Shown here: one piece after another, positions 1-37,105 of the stretch
Layout of the letters: each line of letters begins with the position of its first letter
How positions within the stretch are numbered: the stretch's first letter is position 1
Virus record (IMG/VR): IMGVR_UViG_2859783438_000005
Length of the DNA: 37,940 nt
Source of the DNA: a virus
Taxonomy: Duplodnaviria > Heunggongvirae > Uroviricota > Caudoviricetes
Reading direction: 5' to 3' (one strand)
The notes under the pieces: generated by a model
What the model was told of the DNA's origin: nothing
What the model saw: only the letters and a program-made list of their open reading frames with translations
Database searches by the model: none
Program-made: the position numbers and the translations under genes

Positions 1-981
1 CTAACGTCCTGCTTTTAACAATAACCAGATAAACACCGGCGCACCCAACGTTGCGGTGACCACGCCAATAGGCAGCTCTGCGGCAGCTAATGCCAGGCGC
101 GCTACAATATCGGCCAGCAGCACTGCGCTCGCCCCTGCCAGCGCGCAGCCGGGAAGTAATACGCGATGATCGGTTAAACCACACAACCGAAGAATATGTG
201 GGATCACCAGACCAATAAAGCCGATAGCACCCGCCAGCGCCACACTGACGCCAACCATCCAGCCGGTCGCTGCCACCAGCACATTGCGCCAGAACCACAG
301 GGGTAAACCCAGTTGCCGCGCCGAGATCTCGCCAAGTGCTAACATATTCATCGGCCTGGACTGACAACAGATCCACAACAACACGGGGATCAATGCCAGC
401 ATCAGCCAGCTTTGCCGCCAGTCTACGCCGCCAAAACCGCCCATCATCCAGTACATCAGCTGACGTAAATCAACAGAGGTGGAAAAGTAGATAGCCCACG
501 TCATTAGTGCGCTACAGATAATCCCTAATGCAACGCCAGCCAGCAATAACCGACTGGTCGAAAGATGACGACGGGCGAAACGTAAGAGTATTAAAGTGAT
601 GATAAGCGCGCCAGCAATCGCACACAGCCCTAGCGCCCAGTTGGGGAGTTGCCCTTGCCCAAGCAATACCGCGGCGATAAGCCCCACGCCTGCGCCGTTA
701 GAGACGCCAAGTAGTCCAGGTTCTGCCAGAGGATTTTCAAACAACGCCTGCATTACAGCGCCGGATATAGCCAGCGCCGCACCAACCAGCAATACAGCCA
801 GCGTACGTGGCAGGCGAATTTGCCAGACGAACAGTTCGCCACGAGGAGTAAACCAGTCACCTGGCGAAATCCATTGTTCACCGGCGCAAAGGCTTAAGAG
901 AAGCGCCAGCAGCATCAAAACTGACAGGCATAATAACCAGCGAATATTTTGTCGCTGTTGTTGGCGGGCAAGTGTCAGCAT
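1..981 (-). CDS. btuC: vitamin B12 ABC transporter permease BtuC
   Basis: 326-aa ORF from the track; translation ([24 protein letters not shown]...) is a polytopic membrane protein I recognise as essentially identical to enterobacterial BtuC. Confidence 0.93.
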
Positions 982-1038: not shown

Positions 1039-1064
1039 AAAAGAAAAAAGGCCGCAGAGCGGCC
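1039..1064 (-). terminator. putative rho-independent terminator between prophage cargo and btuC
   Basis: GC hairpin ggccg-cagag-cggcc preceded on the plus strand by an A-run (a U-run after the hairpin on the minus-strand transcript). Confidence 0.45.
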
Positions 1065-1173
1065 ATAAACACAAACAAAAATCAATAAGTTAGGTAATTA
1101 TCAAAGACTTACAGACACACAAAAACACAGCCAACCACAACAAATAACAGAGATGTGGTCAATTTGTGGATCA

Positions 1174-1728
1174 TCAGCCAACAAATTTAGCAACAAATAC
1201 AGCAACCGCCGCTGTGAAAATGGTTGTGCACACTGGCACAATAATGCCACTCCAACGCCACTTCGTATTATCATCAACCTTGTCAAACCGCCGATTCATC
1301 TCATCCATAATCTTGTCAAAGCGTTTATCCATCGCTTCGGTAAGCTCACCCTTCAGGCTGTTAATGTCTGATTTGAGCTGCTCTTTCAGGTTAGCTGTAT
1401 CAGATTTAAGCTCACCTTTCAGATTCGCAATATCGCATTCAAGATCACCTTTCAGATGTGCTATGTCTGCTTTGAGTTCACCTTTCACCTCACCAACATC
1501 GGCTTTAGTTGAGAGGTTTGTAGTGCGTTCAGCAAGCGTCGCAAGGTCGTTTCTTGTTAGCGATAAATCACCTTCGAGCCGCTCAATTCGCCTTTCAAGT
1601 TTATCTGACATTCCGCCTCCACTACTGCCGCCATCGCCACCATGATAAAGCACATCACGCTCAGAATGCGACACACTACCTGCTGAATTACCGAAAAGAT
1701 TTCTTGCTACATTACCCATTATCACCAT
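1174..1728 (-). CDS. coiled-coil, C-terminally membrane-anchored protein with 11-residue repeats (function unknown)
   Basis: 184-aa ORF; Gly/Ser-rich N-terminus, four to five 11-aa repeats (KGELKADIAHL / KGDLECDIANL / KGELKSDTANL / KEQLKSDINSL), single hydrophobic C-terminal segment (IIVPVCTTIFTAAVAVFVAKFV). Confidence 0.6.
   Translation of the reverse strand: MVIMGNVARNLFGNSAGSVSHSERDVLYHGGDGGSSGGGMSDKLERRIERLEGDLSLTRNDLATLAERTTNLSTKADVGEVKGELKADIAHLKGDLECDIANLKGELKSDTANLKEQLKSDINSLKGELTEAMDKRFDKIMDEMNRRFDKVDDNTKWRWSGIIVPVCTTIFTAAVAVFVAKFVG
1343..1487. repeat. 33-bp imperfect tandem repeats (coding, 11-codon units)
   Basis: visible periodic repetition of ...agctcacctttcagat... units in the DNA matching the 11-aa protein repeats; approximate limits. 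Confidence 0.5.
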
Positions 1729-1903
1729 CCTGCGCTTTGTCTTTCTCCAACCACTTCAGCACCGCAGACGTACGATAAAGGCTCAGGTAACCACAATTCA
1801 GGCAATGCAGCGTGTAATAAGTTTTGCGCATATCAGGTATGCTCTTAACATCACCCAAAAAAGCATAAGATACATAATGCTTTATGTTCTCTTTAATTAA
1901 CTC

Positions 1904-2157
1904 TGAAGTGGCACACTGAATTTGGCCACCTGAACAGAGGTGATATGCTCACCTCAGAACAACACAGGTGCTCCAATGAAAAAAAGAAATTTTAGCGCAG
2001 AGTTTAAACGCGAATCCGCTCAACTGGTTGACTATATCGTTGGATATTACAGCGCACTAAGACCGCACGAATATAACGGTGGGTTACCCCCAAACGAATC
2101 GGAAAATCGATACTGGAAAAACTCTAACTCGGTGGCCAGTTTTTGTTGACCACTTCA
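1904..2157 (+). mobile_element. miniature internally deleted IS911-like element (IS3 family) with 3-bp target duplication
   Basis: imperfect terminal inverted repeats tgaagtggcacactgaatttggccacc (left) and ggtggccagtttttgttgaccacttca (right, reverse complement tgaagtggtcaacaaaaactggccacc); flanked by CTC direct repeats at 1901-1903 and 2158-2160; internal ORF begins [18 protein letters not shown] as in IS911 OrfA. Confidence 0.7.
1940..2149 (+). pseudogene. remnant transposase ORF (IS911 OrfA N-terminus fused to an IS3-family OrfB C-terminal tail)
   Basis: 69-aa ORF; OrfA-like start [18 protein letters not shown] joined directly to ...[33 protein letters not shown]; far too short to encode a functional transposase. 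Confidence 0.55.
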
Positions 2158-2469
2158 CTCACTCTGTTCCTCCAGGGGTAGATTGTTAAAATTTTCTGGT
2201 TTCTTATTTTTATCCCAGCAAAGATCCATACTTTCTGGAACAGATAATCGCGACGATCCACATGAAGGGCAGACACTGGAGACCCCCTTCTCAGACAAGA
2301 AACGGAAGAAGATTTCTGGCGTAATCTCCATCAGCCGCTCTTTATGTTTTTTGACACGACTCATCGACTTCTTATTGATTTCATCAGCTTCTTCTTTGCA
2401 TTTATCTTCTATATATTTCGATAGTAAATAGTCATATAACTCTTTTTTTGTAGGTTTTTTTATTTCCAT
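2155..2469 (-). CDS. lysine-rich small protein with CPSCG zinc-ribbon-like motif, C-terminally truncated by the IS911-like insertion
   Basis: 104-aa ORF in AT-rich DNA; GGAGG RBS 9 nt upstream; starts 2 nt after the int stop; stop codon TGA is supplied by the IS terminal sequence. Confidence 0.55.
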   Translation of the reverse strand: MEIKKPTKKELYDYLLSKYIEDKCKEEADEINKKSMSRVKKHKERLMEITPEIFFRFLSEKGVSSVCPSCGSSRLSVPESMDLCWDKNKKPENFNNLPLEEQSE

Positions 2470-2471
2470 AG

Positions 2472-3449
2472 TTACATTCCTCCCAAGGGATTAAACCTCA
2501 CCGCATCCTGCAAGTAATCCGGCGCAAGATGGGCATAAATCATCGTTGTCTGAATCTTTGCGTGCCCCAGAATTTTCTGGAGCGTCAGAATATTGCCGCC
2601 GTTCATCATGAAATGACTGGCGAAGGTGTGGCGCAGCGCATGAACAGCCTGGCCGTCAGGAACATCAGGTGCGACCGTTTTGATGACATCGCGAACCAAT
2701 GAATAATCCAGCGTCGGAAACACCAGTTTCCCGCCCCGTTTTTTGATCTTTTCAAACAGGCTTTCAGAAATAGGAACGGTACGGTTTTTGCTGTTCTTCG
2801 TTTTTGAAAAAGTGATTCGACAATGAAGAACACGGCGCTGCTCCAGTGCCGCTACCTCGCCCCATCGCGCCCCGGTCGACAGAAGGATTTCGACGGCCAG
2901 CCGTTCATCGGGATTTTCAGCCAGTGCATCCAGCAACTGAACACATTCAGACTTACTCAGATATCCCATTTCACGCTCGTTAACCTTCATTCCTTTAAGG
3001 CCTTGAACGGGGTTATCGTTAAGAAAATGGCCGGATGAGATGAGTGCGGTAAACATCGCGCTTAACGCCCCAATCTCTCGATTTATGGTGCTGGGCTGTA
3101 TCCCCTGCTCTATCCTGGACACACGTAGCTCGGTGAGCATCGTTGTATTAAGTTTATGCACGCACGGGTCATCCATTGCCTCACTCAAGCGCAGCAATTT
3201 AAGGCGCGTGTTATGCCCTGACTTCATTAGCTGGCCGTGGTATTTCCACCACAAGTCAATAAGCACTGACAGCGGACGGCGATCAATGGAGTTTCCTTTC
3301 CACTCATTGTTATGCTGTTGCGCCAGCACCCACCGCTCATATAAAACTGCATCCGATTTCGTTTTAAATTTTTTGCGAATGCGTTTGCCTTTACGCCCCT
3401 CAGGACGCATGTCAAGAAGATACCCTCCCGGAATTGATTTTATGCTCAT
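2472..3449 (-). CDS. int: P2-type tyrosine integrase
   Basis: track ORF 2472..3599 trimmed to the Met at MSIKSIPGGYLLDMRPEG; C-terminal catalytic region with HALRHTFASHF...LGHAKIQTTMIYAHL (R-H-R-Y signature); about 325 aa, as for P2 Int. Confidence 0.9.
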   Translation of the reverse strand: MSIKSIPGGYLLDMRPEGRKGKRIRKKFKTKSDAVLYERWVLAQQHNNEWKGNSIDRRPLSVLIDLWWKYHGQLMKSGHNTRLKLLRLSEAMDDPCVHKLNTTMLTELRVSRIEQGIQPSTINREIGALSAMFTALISSGHFLNDNPVQGLKGMKVNEREMGYLSKSECVQLLDALAENPDERLAVEILLSTGARWGEVAALEQRRVLHCRITFSKTKNSKNRTVPISESLFEKIKKRGGKLVFPTLDYSLVRDVIKTVAPDVPDGQAVHALRHTFASHFMMNGGNILTLQKILGHAKIQTTMIYAHLAPDYLQDAVRFNPLGGM

Positions 3450-3498: not shown

Positions 3499-3810
3499 TT
3501 AGCCGGGCTGTGTGCCAGTCTTGCGGGATTTTTGAGAAGACGATGTGTTTTCTGGCCCATCAGGGGAGAGAGAAGGACTGATCTGCCCAGCAGCCTCATT
3601 TGTTTCGTTACTCATCAACCACGTAGTGTATTTTTTAAATTCCGGGTGCATTGTGATTTTCAGTAAAACCTCCGTTCCCACACCTCGAATACCAGTCTCG
3701 TATTGCTTAACCGTACCAACCGCAATACCTATTGAATCCGCGAACTTTGCCTGACTAAGCCCCTCAGATTCTCGAATTGCTTTTAGCTTCTTTGATATCT
3801 CTATTGACAT
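3499..3810 (-). CDS. C: immunity repressor (P2 C-like helix-turn-helix repressor)
   Basis: track ORF 3499..3912 trimmed to Met MSIEISKKLKAIRESEGLSQAKFADSIGIAVGTVKQYETG (HTH, Cro/C1-type); upstream of int, divergent from the early operon. Confidence 0.8.
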   Translation of the reverse strand: MSIEISKKLKAIRESEGLSQAKFADSIGIAVGTVKQYETGIRGVGTEVLLKITMHPEFKKYTTWLMSNETNEAAGQISPSLSPDGPENTSSSQKSRKTGTQPG

Positions 3811-6243: not shown

Positions 6244-8208
6244 ATGACGGCAGAGTACATCAGGGACTGGCAACAACCGCGCCACGCAGTGGGGCGTGAA
6301 GGAACGGGGATCCCCGCTCCTGAATCCGCGCTTTCCTCCTGGCTGGATGCCCACCGGGCAGAGAACGAGCGCCGCCAGGAAATGGCTGATGCGGCGTTCT
6401 CCGCCACGCCACTGGGCAACCTGATTAATAAAAGCCTGGACGCACAGGAAAAACAGGACAAAACCATCACACTGGCAGGAGACGCCAGAAAACAGGCACG
6501 CGGCGCGGTGGATGAAGCCATGGCCTCGCTGCGCCTGCTGCCGTCCTATCTGCGCGATCCGCTTATTCGCCACCTCTCCTTCCTGCGCAAAAAACAGGAA
6601 GCCGATCGCCGGAAAGGCAAAAAGAGCTGGCAGGCGGAACGCTATGCACGCGGAACCCTGCGCAAAATATTCGAACGTCTGGATCGCACTGACGGACACT
6701 GGCTGACACCGGGTTATCGCTCCCTTGCCGGACGTGAACGCCTGGACGATTTGCTTTACCTGCCGCAACTCAACAAACACCAGATACAGACGCTGGCCAC
6801 CATGACGGCGGCGATGTTCAGCAGCACCTTCGAAAAACTCTGCGATGGTTTTGGCGCGACTGATGGCGAGCTGACCATGGATGTAACGCTGAAGGCGTAT
6901 CAGATGCTGGCCCGCATGGCGTTACACTTACACGCCATGCCTCCGCATTATGACGCACTGACAACAGACAAAGACCGGAGGCACGAACCGGACACAGAAC
7001 TGCTGCCGGGCGCAATCCTTCGCCTGACCTGTGCGGAATGGTGGAAACGCAAACTGTGGCTGTTACGTTGCGAGTGGAGAGAAGAACAACTTCGCGCCGC
7101 CTGTCTGGTTTCCAGAAAAACATCGCCCTATCTGAGCCAGGACGCGTTAAGCGAGTTTCGCGCACAGCGCGAGAAAACACGCGATTTCCTGAAAAGTTTC
7201 ATGCTGGAAAATGAAGACGGGTTCACGATTGATCTCGAGACGGTGTATTACGCGGGAGTAAGTAACCCGGTTCACCGTAAGGCAGAAATGATGGCCACCA
7301 TGAAGGGGCTGGAACTTCTGGCCGAAGCCCGTGGCGACAAAGCGGTGTTTCTGACTGTCACCTGCCCGTCAAAATACCACGCCACAACGGAGAACGGTCA
7401 TCCGAATCCCAAATGGAACGGGGCCACAATGCGCGACTCCAGCGATTACCTGGTTAACACGTTTTTTGCGACGGTCCGCAAAAAACTGAACCGCGACGGC
7501 CTGCGCTGGTATGGCATCCGCACGGCGGAGCCTCACCATGACGGCACCGTGCACTGGCATATGATGGTCTTTGCTCATCCGGAAGAAATCGACACCATTG
7601 TGTCCCACACCCGCGATATTGCCATTCAGGAAGATCGTCACGAGCTGGGCGATGACATAACTCCGCGCTTTAAGGCGGAGTATGTAGACGGCTCAAAAGG
7701 CACGCCAACCAGCTACATCGCCACCTACATCGGGAAAAACCTGGACAGCCGCGCCGTGGATGGCATCGACCCGAAAACGGGCAAGCCACGCGTTGACCAC
7801 GAAACCGGAAAATCAATGGCCGAGAGCGTGGAACGCGCCATCGGCTGGGCGCGCCTTCACCGGGTCCGCCAGTTCCAGTTCTTTGGCATCCCCTCCCGCC
7901 AGGTATGGCGTGAACTGCGCCGCCTTGCCAGCCAGATGGCACGCAACCCGGAAGGCCCGCAACGGCTGAAGGATGACGCAATGGATGCGGTTCTTGCCGC
8001 CGCTGATGCCGGATGTTTTGCCACCTACATAGAGAAACAGGGCGGCGTACTTGTTCCACGCAAAGACTACCTGATTCGCACCGCCTACGACCTCGCCGAT
8101 GAGCTGAACGATTACGGCGAACAGAGCGTACAGATTTACGGGATCTGGTCACCACTCATCGGGGAATCCTCCGTGTGTGCACGCATCCGGATAACTGGAA
8201 GCTGGTAA
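6244..8208 (+). CDS. A: rolling-circle replication initiator endonuclease (P2 gpA family)
   Basis: 654-aa ORF; HUH-type motif region ...AEPHHDGTVHWHMMVFAHPEE... and the position at the end of the early operon match P2/186 A. Confidence 0.85.
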   Translation: MTAEYIRDWQQPRHAVGREGTGIPAPESALSSWLDAHRAENERRQEMADAAFSATPLGNLINKSLDAQEKQDKTITLAGDARKQARGAVDEAMASLRLLPSYLRDPLIRHLSFLRKKQEADRRKGKKSWQAERYARGTLRKIFERLDRTDGHWLTPGYRSLAGRERLDDLLYLPQLNKHQIQTLATMTAAMFSSTFEKLCDGFGATDGELTMDVTLKAYQMLARMALHLHAMPPHYDALTTDKDRRHEPDTELLPGAILRLTCAEWWKRKLWLLRCEWREEQLRAACLVSRKTSPYLSQDALSEFRAQREKTRDFLKSFMLENEDGFTIDLETVYYAGVSNPVHRKAEMMATMKGLELLAEARGDKAVFLTVTCPSKYHATTENGHPNPKWNGATMRDSSDYLVNTFFATVRKKLNRDGLRWYGIRTAEPHHDGTVHWHMMVFAHPEEIDTIVSHTRDIAIQEDRHELGDDITPRFKAEYVDGSKGTPTSYIATYIGKNLDSRAVDGIDPKTGKPRVDHETGKSMAESVERAIGWARLHRVRQFQFFGIPSRQVWRELRRLASQMARNPEGPQRLKDDAMDAVLAAADAGCFATYIEKQGGVLVPRKDYLIRTAYDLADELNDYGEQSVQIYGIWSPLIGESSVCARIRITGSW

Positions 8209-25778: not shown

Positions 25779-26306
25779 TTACTCAGGCTTTTGTGGCCAT
25801 TCTGGCTTTGCCGTATCCACACGGCTGACCAGAACACTGTAGCGTTCCCATGCTTCCAGTCGTGTGCGTTCCTCGTCCGTCGCCATATTCAGCCTGACAG
25901 CGCGTTCCAGCGGCTGGATGACTGATTCAGCTTCGGAAAGCAATGCGGCCTTTTGTGATTCGGCCTGTTGTTGCTGTTCGTCAGCCGTATAAATCCGTTT
26001 AACCACAGCTCCGTCCTTAAACATCCACTTACCGGAATCATCAGCACGACGATTAGCTGTAATATCAGGAACCTCAACGACGCTATAACCTTCAGGGTTA
26101 AGCGTGGAGGCATCTTTGGTGATGGCGACAATAATATTATTTGCATCGTAAACAATCTTTATTGTGTCTGGCTGAAAGTTCTTCACTTCCTCATACCAGT
26201 TTTTTCCGTCCTCAGAGTAAAGCCAGATGACTCCGTGCTTCTTTGTTAACTCATACTGCTCCACTGTTTTAGCATTACCTGCTTTTATGTTCTTTAAGTG
26301 CATCAT
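25779..26306 (-). CDS. alternative tail fibre assembly protein (Tfa') of the inverted cassette
   Basis: track ORF 25779..26339 trimmed to Met [11 protein letters not shown]; paralogue of G. Confidence 0.7.
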
Positions 26307-26307
26307 A

Positions 26308-26949
26308 TTAAATACTCGCCACATTATACCAAGTGCCATTTATATACTTTTGCACTGGCCTGTAATGAACGCCTGCAATATTATCGGCAGAGTTTTTTCC
26401 GGTATCCTGTACGTTAATCCCCGTCAGTACATAGCCTGACGGGCACTGAAAATTCCATGTTTGCCAGTTGTTCACTCCATAATATTGCTGTGAACCAAGT
26501 CGAACATCTTTCACATATCTGGAATCAAAATTGCCATAGTTGCCGGGAATAACTTGCGAGCCGCAAAGCCAGTTCCCGTTATTATCCATGTACGCCTGAC
26601 CATCGGTGCCATTGGCTGTCCTTGAGTTATTAATCATGTAGATGCCAAATTGCTTATTTCCCAGACCGCCAATCATAAATTTGCGGTCGGCATGGTCCTG
26701 ACGGAGCAAAGCCTGAGCACCATCAGTGGATACCGCATTACGTCCCAAAATAACATTCTGGTCACGCATATGAATCCACATGCCGGTACTACTGTTAATT
26801 GCAAAACGGTTTGCAAATATATCCCCTGTAACATCAAGACCATGCCCCATGCTTATCCGGCCAGTTCTGAGATTAAGCGTAAAGGGGCGTAGTGGCCCTA
26901 TATTACCATTTTCCCCTTCATTCTCTCGTGTAGGATGATATGCAGGCAT
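26308..26949 (-). CDS. alternative tail fibre C-terminal receptor-binding cassette (H'v), promoterless; upstream part lies in another frame
   Basis: ends ...[16 protein letters not shown]...[16 protein letters not shown] as in the P2 H C-terminus; the 5' continuation to the gix site (26898..27309) is in a different frame. Confidence 0.55.
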
Positions 26950-27309
26950 TCTTCAGAACGACGAAAAATGGCACCAAAAGATGAATTAAATATCCTCAGT
27001 GCATTGACTGTCGATATTTTCACTTCACTGCTGAAAAGGGCTTCAACAAGAACAGACAAAGCATTCCATTTAAGATTCATCAGGTCTTTAGGCCGGGTGC
27101 CAATGATGCGGTGTCTCCATTTGAAATATTCATTGCCGTTGTTGCCTGTTTCAAACCACATGTAGGAATCGGTGTCTGCATCCGAATTATTTTTAAACCC
27201 AATCTTTGCCCAGTCAGTATTTCGAATCCAGGCAAGGATTGAGTCGTTTTCAAAAGTAAGTCCACCGGACAACGTATCGCCATTTTTTTGCACGGCGTTA
27301 CCAGCCTTG

Positions 27310-27334
27310 TTTACCGTTTCCTGTAAACCGAGGT
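27310..27334. repeat. gix/hix-like recombination site B (right inverted repeat), interrupted by IS insertion
   Basis: tttaccgtttcctgtaaaccgaggt; the rest of the predicted site (tagataa) is displaced to about 27850 beyond the IS. Confidence 0.65.
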
Positions 27335-27335
27335 T

Positions 27336-27846
27336 TGAGGTGTACTGGCAATAGCGGACACTACCATTTGTTCTTTTTTTAAGCAGCCATCTGATGATAT
27401 TTTTCCCTGAAGGCTGCCGGGGAGATATTCCCCAGACGAGAGTGACGACGCTGACGATTGTAGAAAATCTCAATGTATTCCCGTATTACTGAGATGGCTT
27501 CATCCCGGTTATTAAAACGATAGTGGCTCAGGCTCTCATTTTTCAGCGTTCCCCAGAAGCTTTCCATCGGAGCGNNNNNNNNNNNNNNNNNNNNNNNNNN
27601 NNNNNNNNNNNNNNNNNNNNNNNNNNNNNNNNNNNNNNNNNNNNNNNNNNNNNNNNNNNNNNNNNNNNNNNNNNAAGAGATAATCGGGAAGCGCCTTCAC
27701 TGATCGAAAGTTGATTTTCAAGAACCGTTCTGACAGCTTCGGCTTTGAACTCTTTAGAGTAACGTTGGGTTTTTCTGCTCATTATTAGCTCCTTCTGATG
27801 CCATTCTATTTCAGGAAGGAGTGTCCGTTAAACTCAGGCTACCTCA
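27336..27846 (-). mobile_element. IS3-family insertion sequence (IS600-like), interior unresolved by an assembly gap
   Basis: terminal inverted repeats tgaggtgtactggcaatagcggacactacc (27336-27365) and ggaaggagtgtccgttaaactcaggctacctca (27814-27846); 3-bp GTT direct repeats at 27333-27335 and 27847-27849; OrfA N-terminus MSRKTQRYSKEFKAEAVRTV and OrfB C-terminus ...FYNRQRRHSRLGNISPAAF on the minus strand. Confidence 0.7.
27575..27674. other. assembly gap (100 N)
   Basis: run of exactly 100 n inside the IS element; the true length of the missing sequence is unknown. Confidence 0.95.
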
Positions 27847-27911
27847 GTTTTAGATAATGGCCGTTTCCGGCCTGCATGGCATGATTTGCGCTTTTGGACG
27901 GGAGATTCAGC

Positions 27912-28499
27912 GTGCTGATTGGCTATGTAAGGGTATCAACAAATGACCAGAATACAGACCTGCAACGAAACGCTCTTGTTTGTGCAGGATGTGAACAAAT
28001 ATTTGAAGATAAATTAAGCGGGACAAAGACAGACCGACCGGGATTAAAACGCGCTTTAAAGCGCCTTCAAAAAGGTGACACGCTGGTTGTCTGGAAACTG
28101 GATCGCCTCGGGCGAAGCATGAAACATCTGATTTCTCTCGTCGGGGAACTACGGGAGCGAGGAATTAATTTTCGCAGTCTGACCGACAGCATAGATACAT
28201 CTTCTCCAATGGGGCGTTTTTTCTTCCACGTGATGGGTGCCCTGGCTGAAATGGAACGTGAATTAATTGTTGAACGTACACTGGCCGGACTGGCGGCAGC
28301 ACGCGCACGGGGGCGCACAGGCGGACGTCGACCGAAGCTGACAAAAGAACAGCATGAGCAAATAGCAAGGCTGATCAAAAACGGGCACGACAGAAAACAA
28401 CTGGCAATAATTTACGGCATTGGTATATCGACGATTTATCGTTACCACCCCGCAGGAGAATCAATCGGAACAATAGAGAAGAGTCAGGAAACAAAATAA
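27912..28499 (+). CDS. serine DNA invertase (Gin/Pin/Hin/Cin family)
   Basis: track ORF 27894..28499; from the GTG at 27912 the protein reads MLIGYVRVSTNDQNTDLQRNALVCAGCEQIFEDKLSG..., nearly identical to Gin/Pin as I recall them (catalytic Ser in VRVSTNDQ). Confidence 0.88.
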   Translation: MLIGYVRVSTNDQNTDLQRNALVCAGCEQIFEDKLSGTKTDRPGLKRALKRLQKGDTLVVWKLDRLGRSMKHLISLVGELRERGINFRSLTDSIDTSSPMGRFFFHVMGALAEMERELIVERTLAGLAAARARGRTGGRRPKLTKEQHEQIARLIKNGHDRKQLAIIYGIGISTIYRYHPAGESIGTIEKSQETK

Positions 28500-35602: not shown

Positions 35603-37105
35603 ATGAACAAAAAGCTGTATTTATTCCCAGACTCAAACATTTTTCTACAATGCAAGGACTTGACGCAGGTAAATTTTTCCGAGATTACTGCTTGTGATGA
35701 AGTATGTATCATTATTACAAGGCCCATTCAGCAAGAGATTGACCGCCAGAAAGGGCAAGGTAATTCCCGCCTATCCAAAAAAGCAAGGAAGGCTGCTAGC
35801 CTATTTAATCAAGTAGTTGATTCAACTGACATGACTCTTGTTATTCGTGAACGCTCGCCGCGAGTTTTTCTTACCATGGATCTAAGCCTGAAACCATGTG
35901 AACAGTTATCTGAACAATTGGATTATCAGGAGGCCGACGATCGTTTTGTTGGTATTGCGGCAGGGTATTGCGCTGACGATCCAGATTCGGAGGTGGCAAT
36001 CATTACCAATGATAGCGGTCCACGTTTTTCAGCAATAAAACATAATATAATCTGCTATAAAGTGCCTTCTTCATGGTTGCTTCCTGCTGAGCCAGATGAA
36101 AAGGATAAACAAATTAAATTGCTGGAAGCTAAGCTGAAGCAATTCACTCAGTCTATGCCCGATTTCAGCATTAAAGTAGCCGATGACGAGCAATTAAATA
36201 TTGTACTTCCTTATTATACAGCTTTATCTGAATATGAAGTTGATAATTTGCTTTGTCAACTAACGGATGCATTCCCATTGGTTACAAACTTTGACAATGA
36301 ACAAACTACCCCACAATCACTAGAAAAAATCATCAAGTCATTTAGTCAACAGGAGTATTTCCCTGTATCAGCAGATGATATTTCTCTTTATAAAGAAAAA
36401 CATTATCCACTTTGGAAAAAGCAGTGTGAAGAAATACTGAAAAACTGTCATACTCATATTAATCCGAAGGCAATAAATTACCCGCTGTCGTTTTTATTAC
36501 AAAACACAGGTTATACTATCGCTGAACGTGCTGTGGTAACATTTACAGCAAAAGGAGATTTTCGTCTGTGTGGATTTAATTGGGAGATAATGGAAGAGCT
36601 GACTGAAAGCAAAAGGATTGACCTACCTTCAGCCCCTACCGCCCCCAAAGGAAAATGGCGTAGTGTATGTGGCGTAACAGAAAGAATGCCTTACGCTGGG
36701 GGAGCTTTGGAAACACCGCTATCCAGTATAATTTCAAAAGAAATTGGTCCTTTGTTATCTCTTACTCCAACAGAAAGGGATAAAAACGATTTTTATTATA
36801 AAGAAAAGAGAAATGAGCCAGTTCAAGTTGTATCGCTGGAATGCGAAGAGTGGCGTCATCAAGTCAAAGAAGAAATATTCCCGTTGTTCGTATATACAGC
36901 CAACAAACCAAAGAAAGTGAATGGTGCAATTGAGGTGAGAGTTGATGCAAATAACCTTACCAATCCGGTCATTAAAACATTTAAATTAAAAATAACTATA
37001 GAAGAACATAGTGCATTTTCAACCATAACAGAAATGGTGCAGACATACATTCAAGAGCAGAAGAAAAGACAGAAAAGTTCTATTAGCGCACAAATCAAAA
37101 CATGA
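35603..37105 (+). CDS. 500-aa protein with PIN-like N-terminal domain (putative nuclease) and unrecognised C-terminal domain
   Basis: single long ORF in markedly AT-rich DNA; N-terminal ~150 aa show a PIN-like layout of conserved acidic positions (YLFPDSNIFL ... TRPIQQEIDRQ ... DD ... IITNDSGPR). Confidence 0.6.
   Translation: MNKKLYLFPDSNIFLQCKDLTQVNFSEITACDEVCIIITRPIQQEIDRQKGQGNSRLSKKARKAASLFNQVVDSTDMTLVIRERSPRVFLTMDLSLKPCEQLSEQLDYQEADDRFVGIAAGYCADDPDSEVAIITNDSGPRFSAIKHNIICYKVPSSWLLPAEPDEKDKQIKLLEAKLKQFTQSMPDFSIKVADDEQLNIVLPYYTALSEYEVDNLLCQLTDAFPLVTNFDNEQTTPQSLEKIIKSFSQQEYFPVSADDISLYKEKHYPLWKKQCEEILKNCHTHINPKAINYPLSFLLQNTGYTIAERAVVTFTAKGDFRLCGFNWEIMEELTESKRIDLPSAPTAPKGKWRSVCGVTERMPYAGGALETPLSSIISKEIGPLLSLTPTERDKNDFYYKEKRNEPVQVVSLECEEWRHQVKEEIFPLFVYTANKPKKVNGAIEVRVDANNLTNPVIKTFKLKITIEEHSAFSTITEMVQTYIQEQKKRQKSSISAQIKT

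What the first reader, a model, noticed from the sequence alone, without database searches (positions are those of the whole stretch)
1174..2469. Integrase-proximal cargo: zinc-ribbon protein and repeat-rich coiled-coil tail-anchored membrane protein
Directly downstream of int on the same strand, with a GGAGG RBS starting 2 nt after the int stop, lies an AT-rich ORF for a Lys-rich protein with a CPSCG motif, followed by a 184-aa protein of Gly/Ser-rich head, 11-residue coiled-coil repeats and a C-terminal TM anchor. A minus-strand terminator (1039-1064) precedes btuC. P2 has no genes between int and att, so these look like morons at the prophage left end; the coiled-coil protein vaguely recalls XhlA-like membrane-acting coiled-coil proteins, but I cannot assign a family. 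The exact left att boundary (probably between about 1065 and 1174) could not be located.
Basis: partly seen in the sequence, partly recalled or inferred. Interest (0 to 1): 0.5.

Follow-up and report, generated by a model that had tools for sequence, protein, structure and literature searches.

The report
Prophage zinc-ribbon plus membrane-anchor gene pair
Between the integrase and the left end of a P2/186-like E. coli prophage sits a conserved but uncharacterised two-gene cargo module, a small zinc-ribbon protein and a membrane-anchored coiled-coil protein related to DUF1640/Bdr proteins; in this copy a 254-bp insertion-sequence remnant has split the zinc-ribbon gene.

Summary
Both ORFs are real and are phage cargo. 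The K-12 empty site matches the window only up to base 1064. The att core is the ihfA terminator, 1040-1064.

The 104-aa "zinc-ribbon protein" is the front part of a 166-aa gene. A 254-bp internally deleted IS3-family element (1904-2157, CTC target duplication) splits it between its two CxxC pairs.

The coiled-coil protein is a DUF1640/CCDC90-like, Bdr-like protein anchored by a C-terminal TM helix. It has a disordered head, a poly-Gly linker, an LSTKAD beta-layer motif and seven 11-residue units. Repeat number varies among homologs.

The two genes form a conserved, translationally coupled pair (phrog_4293 plus a tail-anchored coiled coil). I found the pair at all 19 distinct loci I inspected, always in accessory slots of temperate phages.

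ZnR type travels with head type, while the stalk and TM part is exchanged independently. An invariant internal Met preceded by GGAGG suggests two isoforms.

Function is untested and there is no PADLOC match. My best inference is a lysogen-expressed, membrane-based phage-exclusion or defence module, inactivated in this window.

Interest is moderate: the instance is broken, but the module is undescribed.

The parts
1040..1064 (-). att core (AAAGAAAAAAGGCCGCAGAGCGGCC). It is the intrinsic terminator of host ihfA. At attL it ends the prophage cI-int-cargo transcript before btuC.
   Evidence: The K-12 empty site is identical up to 1064. The same 25 bp recur at attR of the RM8426 prophage next to ihfA. 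The terminator scan finds it.
1065..1173 (-). Phage-specific attL arm and 3' untranslated region (32% GC).
   Evidence: Absent from K-12. The stretch 1100-1174 is shared by 303 of 5426 complete E. coli genomes, including prophages with other cargo in the slot. GC.
1174..1719 (-). Tail-anchored coiled-coil protein, long form (181 aa from Met4; the ORF is open to 1728). Layout: disordered head, poly-Gly linker, helix, LSTKAD beta-layer motif, 7 hendecads, TM.
   Evidence: ORF. In-frame head conserved in all homologs. Its ATG overlaps the ZnR stop. Head dN/dS about 0.45. AF2 secondary structure.
1174..1611 (-). Short form (145 aa) from the invariant internal Met40. GGAGG at 1620-1616 precedes it. 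This is the RefSeq gene call and a possible second isoform.
   Evidence: PGAP calls in relatives. Met is invariant in A2 and in 19 diverse loci, 15 of which have GGAGG 3-16 nt upstream. GGA codons are enriched in the linker.
1285..1515 (-). Seven 11-residue (33-bp) units: LSTKADVGEVK, GELKADIAHLK, GDLECDIANLK, GELKSDTANLK, EQLKSDINSLK, GELTEAMDKRF, DKIMDEMNRRF.
   Evidence: Register printed. TRF finds period 33 at 1383-1487. Homolog lengths differ by multiples of 11 aa. The repeats resemble Bdr repeats and 6h9l repeats.
1180..1254 (-). C-terminal transmembrane anchor (aa 159-183). Only about one residue follows it.
   Evidence: AF2 helix 159-183. Hydrophobic C-termini occur in all full-length partners.
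1712..1903 (-). 3' fragment of the split zinc-ribbon gene (aa 105-166 of the intact protein, with the second CxxC, CLNCG).
   Evidence: Alignment to the intact gene of RM8426. phrog_4293 positions 87-122. Weak Pfam Zn_ribbon_13 hit.
1904..2157 (+). 254-bp internally deleted IS3-family element. It has terminal inverted repeats (TGAAGTGG...CCACTTCA) and joined remnants of orfA and orfB. It is flanked by the CTC target duplication (1901-1903 and 2158-2160).
   Evidence: A 257-bp insertion relative to 23 complete genomes. It matches the two ends of IS3-family transposase genes. The same mini-element occurs at 99% identity on plasmids.
2158..2469 (-). 5' fragment of the split zinc-ribbon gene (aa 1-104, first CxxC CPSCG). 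As read in the window, the ORF is 2155-2469 and ends at a TGA supplied by the IS end.
   Evidence: phrog_4293 positions 4-60. The identical 104-aa product (P0018) is seen on 14 contigs.
2472..3449 (-). Tyrosine integrase. Its last codons contain the GGAGG (2483-2479) that serves the ZnR gene.
   Evidence: Pfam Int_N and Phage_integrase. RefSeq coordinates transferred from L001. Junction sequence.
3499..3810 (-). CI-like HTH repressor, the first gene on the strand that also carries int and the cargo.
   Evidence: Pfam HTH_3 and phrog_147. Annotation of L001.

Best explanation
SHOWN. The region is the left end of a P2/186-like prophage integrated into the ihfA terminator upstream of btuC. After cI and int, on the same strand, it carries a two-gene accessory module.

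(1) The first gene encodes a 166-aa cytoplasmic four-cysteine zinc-ribbon protein (phrog_4293). In this window it is inactivated by a 254-bp IS3-family remnant.

(2) The second gene is translationally coupled to the first. It encodes a tail-anchored protein of the DUF1640/CCDC90/Bdr kind. Its layout is: a roughly 26-aa disordered head ending in His, a poly-Gly linker, an invariant Met, a helix, a beta-layer motif, a stalk of 11-residue repeats of variable number, and a C-terminal TM helix.

The pair is conserved at all 19 distinct loci I inspected. It always lies in accessory slots of temperate phages. ZnR type and head type are inherited together, while the stalk and TM part is exchanged independently at the Gly linker.

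INFERRED. The module is transcribed in the lysogen with cI-int and stops at the att-borne terminator. The stalk probably forms a trimer, holding the N-terminus in the cytoplasm at a set distance from the inner membrane. The zinc-ribbon protein docks on the cognate head. The invariant Met with its GGAGG gives a second, headless isoform.

The most likely role is protection of the lysogen against other phages (superinfection exclusion or abortive infection at the inner membrane). In that model ZnR plus head is the specificity part and stalk plus TM is the membrane-acting part. In this window the module is probably non-functional.

The anatomy is about 0.9 certain. The defence or exclusion role is about 0.4.
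For: Prophage cargo and att core.

IS disruption. The broken allele persists on 14 contigs.

Zinc ribbon:
- C67, C70, C137 and C140 are invariant in 32 sequences.
- The AF2 model has pLDDT 90.
- The family has 220 representatives, all small and unannotated.

DUF1640/Bdr nature:
- Pfam CCDC90-like, E 1.8e-5.
- RefSeq product names.
- The LSTKAD motif against the published beta-layer consensus (PMC4786415).
- PDB profile hits 6h9l and 7o92.
- Bdr similarity, E 2e-13 pairwise.

Pairing and coupling.

Modular inheritance:
- The stalk is 98% identical between loci whose ZnR is 35% and head 23% identical.
- ZnR is 93-98% identical between loci whose bodies are 21-22% identical.
- Mantel test: ZnR-head rho 0.31, p 0.0014; ZnR-body rho 0.11, p 0.17.

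Internal start: Met invariant; GGAGG in 15 of 19 loci; GGA codon enrichment 22/64 against 53/339.

Lysogenic-operon and moron locations:
- cI-int-ZnR-partner in E. coli, Salmonella and Klebsiella.
- Downstream of an S24 CI repressor.
- An arc/ant moron region of Salmonella phage SPN3UB.
- Next to ogr at a prophage end in Providencia.

The int-att slot holds alternative cargo and is a reported minor defence hotspot of P2-like phages (PMC13586616).
Against: - There is no functional data.
- No PADLOC-DB v2 model matches any variant. The coiled-coil hits to ZorA and LmuB are compositional.
- Co-inheritance of ZnR and head could be mere physical linkage, with the GGN-repeat linker acting as a recombination site.
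- GGAGG could be a by-product of Gly-Gly codons.
- The invariant Met occupies a coiled-coil core position, so it could be structural.
- Transcription with cI-int is inferred only from a 2-nt gene spacing and the absence of promoter or terminator matches.
- Trimerisation and topology were not tested.
- Hotspot location is only guilt by association (3% of known P2 systems).
Confidence: 0.45

Rival explanations
1. Lysogenic-conversion scaffold with no anti-phage role. Like mitochondrial MCUR1/CCDC90B or Borrelia Bdr, the trimeric tail-anchored stalk would organise or modulate host inner-membrane complexes, with ZnR as an adaptor. It would change host physiology rather than phage sensitivity.
For: Family resemblance to DUF1640/CCDC90 and Bdr. 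Bdr proteins are inner-membrane proteins carried by cp32 prophages, and their function is unknown (PMC10016077). There is no defence-database match.
Against: ZnR and head types turn over sharply between otherwise nearly identical prophages: int is about 98% identical where ZnR is about 25-35% identical. Bodies are also swapped. This looks more like conflict-driven diversification than a housekeeping scaffold.
Confidence: 0.2
2. Lysis-control accessory. The partner would be an XhlA/holin-like protein that tunes lysis timing, and ZnR would be its regulator.
For: Sub-threshold hits to Pfam XhlA (E 2e-4 to 7e-4) and to PHROG holin and hemolysin families (phrog_689 E 3e-6 for the Cronobacter partner; phrog_1193). 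Dual-start motifs are a hallmark of holin/antiholin pairs (general knowledge).
Against: In none of the loci examined was the pair seen next to annotated lysis genes. In the closely related RM8426 prophage the holin, endolysin and spanin genes are annotated far from the slot; the corresponding window genes were not checked. The pair instead lies on the repressor/integrase strand or in moron regions. All XhlA hits are below the curated cut-off.
Confidence: 0.12
3. Addiction or toxin-antitoxin-like pair. The membrane protein would be a toxin and the zinc-ribbon protein its neutraliser, stabilising the prophage.
For: Two small overlapping genes, one a membrane protein. The same prophage family carries Hok/Gef at its other end.
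Against: An allele with ZnR destroyed but the membrane gene intact persists on at least 14 contigs, and in this window. That is hard to reconcile with an essential antitoxin, unless the IS insertion is polar on the downstream gene. There is no similarity to known TA families.
Confidence: 0.12
4. The genes are host-encoded, or the ORFs are chance ORFs.
For: None found.
Against: The genes are absent from the K-12 empty site and lie inside the att repeats. The ZnR gene occurs in only 23 of 5426 complete E. coli genomes, the DUF1640 gene in about 36, and in the six such loci inspected both lie inside this prophage. Both have conserved homologs under purifying selection.
Confidence: 0.01

Closest known systems
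DUF1640 / CCDC90-like family (Pfam PF07798; human MCUR1 and CCDC90B, yeast Put6/Put7, prokaryotic homologs)
   Same: Head helix, then the beta-layer motif [aliphatic]-A-T-K-[polar]-[DE] (here L-S-T-K-A-D), then a coiled-coil stalk and a single C-terminal TM helix. RefSeq names the orthologs DUF1640 or CCDC90 family. The profile hits the PDB trimer 6h9l, which also has 11-residue ATKEDI repeats.
   Different: The Pfam score is below the curated cut-off (25.1 against 33.5 bits). This protein has an extra disordered head and poly-Gly linker, an obligate zinc-ribbon partner gene and a prophage moron context. No function is known for any prokaryotic member.
Borrelia Bdr family repetitive proteins (KID-repeat inner-membrane proteins of cp32 prophage plasmids and linear plasmids)
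   Same: Tandem 11-residue repeats of nearly the same sequence (VKSDLKSDIMS against LKGELKSDTAN). Repeat number is variable. There is a C-terminal hydrophobic anchor. The genes are carried by prophage-derived replicons. Function is unknown.
   Different: The host phylum differs. No zinc-ribbon gene overlaps or abuts the one Bdr locus inspected. That Bdr protein shows no Gly-rich segment where it aligns to the query linker. Similarity is concentrated in the repeats, so part of it may be compositional.
XhlA (Pfam PF10779), the membrane-associated lysis-cassette protein of Bacillus prophage PBSX
   Same: A small protein with an N-terminal coiled coil that starts with an LE-x-R-V-x-K-LE-like motif and a C-terminal TM. 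The short partners of ZnR give their best Pfam hit here.
   Different: All hits are below threshold. The pair was not seen next to lysis genes in any locus examined. XhlA is not known to me to have a zinc-ribbon partner (recollection, not tested).
Prophage-encoded exclusion or abortive-infection genes in lysogenic operons (lambda rexAB and sieB, P22 sieA), and defence cargo in P2-like hotspots (old, tin, fun)
   Same: Small membrane-associated gene products expressed from the repressor side of a prophage. They occupy variable cargo slots with alternative cassettes in related prophages. The int-att slot is a reported minor hotspot.
   Different: No sequence or fold relationship was found, there is no PADLOC model, and no phenotype is known.

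Membership tests
DUF1640 / CCDC90-like (PF07798) | Pfam HMM score at or above the gathering cut-off (33.5 bits) | tested here: not met
   24.1 bits for the 184-aa form and 25.1 bits for the 145-aa form, E 1.8e-5 to 3.7e-5. Precomputed PF07798 hits are recorded for close homologs, and RefSeq names orthologs DUF1640/CCDC90. Membership is therefore likely but sub-threshold in my own scan.
DUF1640 / CCDC90-like (PF07798) | Beta-layer motif [aliphatic]-A-T-K-[polar]-[DE] at the start of the stalk (PMC4786415) | tested here: met
   L-S-T-K-A-D at aa 72-77 (Ser in place of Ala). T74, K75 and D77 are invariant in A2. AF2 breaks the helix exactly at 72-75. The motif definition was read.
DUF1640 / CCDC90-like (PF07798) | Single C-terminal transmembrane helix after a long coiled coil | tested here: met
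   AF2 helices 76-155 and 159-183. The C-terminus is hydrophobic in all full-length homologs.
DUF1640 / CCDC90-like (PF07798) | Trimeric assembly of the stalk | not testable with these tools
   Only monomer prediction was available. The nearest PDB sequence matches (6h9l, 7o92) are deposited with three chains.
Borrelia Bdr family | Central array of 11-residue repeats with variable copy number | tested here: met
   Seven hendecads. Homologs differ by multiples of 11 aa: 101, 112, 123, 134, 145, 156 and 148, 159, 170, 181, 192. Repeat-to-repeat alignment to a Bdr protein gives E 2e-13.
Borrelia Bdr family | KID/KIE tripeptide core of the repeat, and membership of the Borrelia-specific paralogous family PFam80 | tested here: not met
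   The repeats read K-[AS]-D-I, not KID or KIE, and the organism is E. coli. It is a relative or analogue, not a member.
XhlA (PF10779) | Pfam HMM score at or above the gathering cut-off (34.7 bits) | tested here: not met
   There is no XhlA hit for the window protein at E <= 1. Short partners score 20-22 bits. The window protein hits phrog_1193 'hemolysin' only at E 0.023.
XhlA (PF10779) | Location in a phage lysis cassette with holin and endolysin | tested here: not met
   The pair lies next to int/att, cI, arc/ant or ogr in all contexts examined. In the related RM8426 prophage the lysis genes are annotated elsewhere.
phrog_4293 (zinc-ribbon partner; unknown function) | HMM match to the PHROG profile | tested here: met
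   The window N-fragment scores E 6e-12 (profile 4-60) and the C-fragment E 1.7e-7 (profile 87-122). Variants B and C and the Cronobacter protein score E 1e-25 to 1e-30.
Four-cysteine zinc ribbon | Two CxxC pairs on beta-hairpins, conserved across the family | tested here: met
Known anti-phage defence systems (PADLOC-DB v2.0.0) | Significant match of either protein to a defence-system model | tested here: not met
   Only coiled-coil compositional hits (LmuB, ZorA; E 4e-5 to 1e-3) for the stalk, and nothing for ZnR in any variant. Newer databases were not available.

The most novel reading that the evidence does not exclude
The zinc-ribbon protein plus the tail-anchored hendecad coiled coil is a previously undescribed two-component prophage immunity or exclusion system. 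It would have a plug-and-play architecture: a swappable recognition unit (ZnR plus the cognate disordered head) joined through a poly-Gly hinge to a swappable membrane effector (stalk plus TM). A conserved internal start would produce headless subunits that set the stoichiometry of heads per trimer. Because the effector is homologous to Borrelia Bdr and to DUF1640/MCUR1 proteins, solving it in E. coli would give a first functional handle on those families.
Probability: 0.25. Interest if true: 0.75.

Novelty: new variant of a known kind. Interest (0 to 1): 0.5.

Why it matters
The coiled-coil protein belongs to a widespread family (DUF1640/CCDC90, Bdr-like) whose bacterial members have no known function. 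Bdr proteins have been studied in Borrelia for over 20 years without a role being found.

This work shows that in enterobacterial temperate phages such proteins always come with a dedicated zinc-ribbon partner, in cargo slots typical of lysogen-protective genes. They also show a modular, fast-turnover architecture and a likely dual start. That turns an anonymous "hypothetical protein / DUF1640" pair into a defined system that can be tested in E. coli K-12.

On the practical side:
- It fixes the att site of this prophage family, which is the ihfA terminator.
- It flags an annotation gap. RefSeq often truncates the membrane gene to the internal start, and sometimes omits the ZnR gene altogether, as in TUM1880.
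- It shows that the copy in this window is a pseudogenised module.

Tried and rejected
- PDB sequence and profile searches for ZnR were empty.
- NCBIfam gave only compositional coiled-coil hits.
- PADLOC was negative for all variants.
- tblastn of the type-A ZnR against sequenced phages found no match. Other variants did match temperate Salmonella, Klebsiella and Enterobacter phages.
- The genome-contig scan with the DUF1640 alignment returned only 2 loci, because that collection holds one genome per species.
- The A4 alignment was too divergent for a pattern scan.
- No natural ZnR-partner fusion (Rosetta stone) appears among the 150 best representatives, all of which are 180 aa or shorter.
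- A complex prediction of ZnR with the head peptide could not be run.
- Literature searches for DUF1640, XhlA and P2 hotspots found no description of this pair. The Adlakha 2019 Structure paper and the Roberts 2000 Bdr review are not held.
- I considered an excisionase or RDF role for ZnR because it sits next to int. I rejected it because the pair also occurs far from any integrase.
- The apolipoprotein Pfam hit reflects shared 11-mer periodicity and lies far below its cut-off (26 against 90 bits).
Full report
**Setting.** The window starts inside E. coli btuC (1-981, minus strand). The unoccupied ihfA-btuC locus of K-12 MG1655 aligns with the window only over 1-1064. After GGCCGCAGAGCGGCC the two sequences diverge. 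In strain RM8426 a 35-kb P2/186-like prophage fills the gap between btuC and ihfA. The 25-bp sequence AAAGAAAAAAGGCCGCAGAGCGGCC is present at both of its ends. So the att core is window 1040-1064, which is the intrinsic terminator of ihfA, and phage-specific DNA starts at 1065. Both genes are inside the prophage.

**The zinc-ribbon ORF is a broken gene.** In 23 complete E. coli genomes the stretch 950-2520 aligns at 97-99.8% identity but is 257 bp shorter. Those genomes carry a 166-aa gene between int and the coiled-coil gene (23 of 5426 genomes). The extra DNA in the window is 1904-2157. It has terminal inverted repeats (TGAAGTGG...CCACTTCA) and is flanked by a CTC duplication. It matches the two ends of IS3-family transposase genes, and the same mini-element occurs at 99% identity on plasmids. 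From memory, the orfA remnant [18 protein letters not shown] is IS911-like; I did not test this. Removing the insertion restores the 166-aa frame exactly. The unmentioned 48-aa ORF (1712-1858) holds the C-terminus. The two halves hit the N- and C-terminal parts of the same family, phrog_4293. The first CxxC (CPSCG) and the second (CLNCG) end up on opposite sides of the insertion. The truncated product is on record from 14 contigs, so the broken allele is a circulating lineage and not an assembly artefact.

**The zinc-ribbon family.**
- Word-based searches find 18, then 44, clusters, all from Enterobacterales prophages and none with a Pfam domain.
- A full HMM scan of 1.8 billion representatives finds 220 members at E <= 1e-3, all 49-180 aa.
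- C67, C70, G71, C137, C140, G141 and W154 are invariant in 32 sequences.
- AlphaFold2 gives a confident model (pLDDT 90.3, pTM 0.71). It has a long N-terminal helix, present only in type A, then a short helix, a beta-sheet zinc ribbon and a C-terminal helix.

**The coiled-coil protein.**
- RefSeq names the orthologs "DUF1640 domain-containing" or "CCDC90 family" protein.
- My own Pfam scan gives CCDC90-like at E 1.8e-5, which is below the curated cut-off.
- Independent support comes from the beta-layer motif. It was published for DUF1640 as [aliphatic]-A-T-K-[polar]-[DE] at the start of the stalk (PMC4786415). Here it is L-S-T-K-A-D, with T, K and D invariant, and the AF2 helix breaks exactly there.
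- From that point the sequence reads as seven consecutive 11-residue units, encoded partly by a 33-bp tandem repeat.
- Homologs differ in length by exact multiples of 11 residues, so repeat number is polymorphic.
- A profile of the family weakly hits PDB 6h9l, a three-chain entry with ATKEDIEALRK 11-mers, and 7o92.
- Unexpectedly, tblastn against plasmids retrieves Borrelia Bdr family repetitive proteins. A pairwise alignment shows near-identical repeats, VKSDLKSDIMS against LKGELKSDTAN, at E 2e-13.
- Bdr proteins are inner-membrane proteins of cp32 prophage plasmids with variable KID repeats and no known function (PMC10016077; PMC4370689).
- AF2 predicts residues 1-38 as disordered, helices at 41-71 and 76-155, and a TM helix at 159-183. 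Essentially nothing follows the TM helix, so the protein is tail-anchored.

**Gene start.**
- RefSeq annotators start the gene at Met40 (145 aa). Prodigal-type callers use the upstream start (181 aa).
- The upstream extension is real coding sequence. It is open and in frame in every homolog examined. It begins at a start codon that overlaps or abuts the ZnR stop; in the window this is ATGGGTAA.
- It evolves with dN/dS of about 0.45 between two type-A alleles (only 36 codons, so this is weak on its own).
- In variant C, PGAP itself annotates the long form.
- Met40 is nevertheless invariant in 19 loci whose bodies share as little as about 20% identity. In 15 of the 19 a GGAGG lies 3-16 nt upstream, built from GGA-GGN glycine codons. 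GGA is enriched in the linker, 22/64 against 53/339.
- I infer that both a long and a headless short product are made. This is a hypothesis. The Met sits at a coiled-coil core position, and Gly-Gly codons make GGAGG fairly likely by chance.

**The two genes are one module.** At all 19 distinct loci I inspected, a phrog_4293 gene is immediately followed by a gene for a protein with the same layout. That layout is a short head (often ending in His), a poly-Gly run, Met, an LE-x-R-V-x-K-LE helix, a coiled coil and a C-terminal TM. The loci are:
- E. coli variants A, A', B and C at btuC.
- Klebsiella P2-like prophages at other att sites.
- A Providencia P2-like prophage, where the pair sits next to ogr at the opposite end.
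- A Cronobacter prophage and Salmonella phage SPN3UB (gp24/gp25), where it lies in a moron region near arc/ant inside the tail cluster.
- A lambdoid-like contig, where it follows an S24 CI repressor on the same strand.
- Metagenomic and IMG/VR contigs.

Shorter partners lack hendecads and give sub-threshold XhlA hits.

**Modularity.**
- Prophages with about 98% identical int genes carry ZnR proteins that are only 24-35% identical and have unrelated heads. Their stalk and TM are nevertheless 98% identical. The DNA homology breaks at window 1632, inside the Gly linker.
- Conversely, SPN3UB-type ZnR proteins (93-98% identical) with similar heads (65-82%) are joined to three unrelated bodies (21-22%).
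- Over 17 pairs, ZnR identity correlates with head identity (Mantel rho 0.31, p 0.0014) but not with body identity (rho 0.11, p 0.17).
- This fits a ZnR-head recognition unit coupled to an exchangeable membrane unit. Simple linkage, with recombination in the repetitive GGN linker, would give the same pattern.

**Likely function.**
- Nothing is shown experimentally.
- The pair lies on the cI-int strand, 2 nt after int, with no promoter or terminator match in between. It is followed by the att-borne terminator. Expression in the lysogen is therefore the simplest expectation.
- The int-att slot carries alternative cassettes in related prophages. 303 genomes share the attL arm but only about 36 carry this gene, and O104:H4 has an unrelated 131-aa gene there.
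- A 2026 survey lists int-att as a minor defence hotspot of P2-like phages (PMC13586616).
- Together with the rapid cassette turnover, I rank a lysogen-protective exclusion or abortive-infection role first (about 0.4). A non-defence membrane scaffold comes next (about 0.2), then lysis control (about 0.12) and an addiction module (about 0.12).
- Survival of the ZnR-null allele with an intact membrane gene argues against a simple toxin-antitoxin relationship.
- No PADLOC v2 model matches any variant, and the literature searches found no description.

**Verdict.** The interpretation, prophage-end morons, is right in outline. The specific copy is a pseudogenised instance of a conserved, undescribed two-gene module. 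One component is an annotated DUF1640/Bdr-like protein and the other is an orphan zinc-ribbon family. Interest is moderate (0.5): ordinary as a locus, but a well-defined and testable entry point into a family with no known bacterial function.

Noticed in passing
window 1040-1064; L004 35425-35449: The prophage integrates into the ihfA intrinsic terminator and carries its own copy of it. ihfA therefore keeps a terminator at attR, and the prophage cI-int-cargo operon gains one at attL, which shields btuC from read-through.
   Followed up: yes
window 27894-28499 (+) with 25779-27473 (-): A Hin/Gin-type serine DNA invertase (Pfam Resolvase + HTH_7, E 1.5e-50). It lies next to oppositely oriented tail-fibre and tail-fibre-assembly segments (Caudo_TAP, Gp34_trimer). 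This looks like an invertible host-range segment, which the RM8426 relative does not have in this form; RM8426 carries a serine O-acetyltransferase there.
   Followed up: partly
window 35603-37105 (+): A 500-aa PIN-domain protein (PIN_4, E 4.5e-8) lies downstream of gpD; in the RM8426 relative the same gene sits between gpD and ogr. It is a cargo gene with no PADLOC match and could be another candidate defence or toxin gene.
   Followed up: partly
window 9142-10101 (+) and the adjacent ORFs 8175-9065, 10478-11002, 11446-11826: A ParM actin-like segregation protein (E 2.7e-82), plus a partner gene annotated in the RM8426 relative. They occupy the replication-to-portal slot, the classic P2 old/tin hotspot, together with ORFs that have no Pfam or PADLOC hit.
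   Followed up: partly
L002 4756-5169 (TUM1880); L021 2615-3001 (Salmonella): RefSeq and other gene callers leave the type-B zinc-ribbon gene unannotated in some genomes, and usually truncate the partner to its internal Met. This is a systematic annotation gap for the module.
   Followed up: partly
L007 4572-4967 (E. coli O104:H4): The same int-att slot holds an unrelated 131-aa acidic protein with no Cys pairs, no TM and no PADLOC hit. This cassette appears to be the commonest of the sampled alternatives among the 303 genomes that share the attL arm.
   Followed up: no
L004 35019-35159 (RM8426 prophage right end; beyond the window): A Hok/Gef-family toxin gene lies between ogr and attR, so both prophage ends carry small membrane-protein cargo.
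   Followed up: no
L027 5485-5994 (IMG/VR contig): One allele of the coiled-coil gene has a changed, non-hydrophobic C-terminus of 169 aa. It has probably lost its TM anchor through a frameshift, which would be a second independent way of inactivating the module.
   Followed up: no
Partner heads across loci (output): The residue just before the poly-Gly linker is His in most variants (...LYH|GG, FPKH|GGGG, KTHH|GGG, LPSH|SGG, TWH|GGGG, IIRH|GNGG). This conserved H-Gly(n)-Met junction is unexplained.
   Followed up: no
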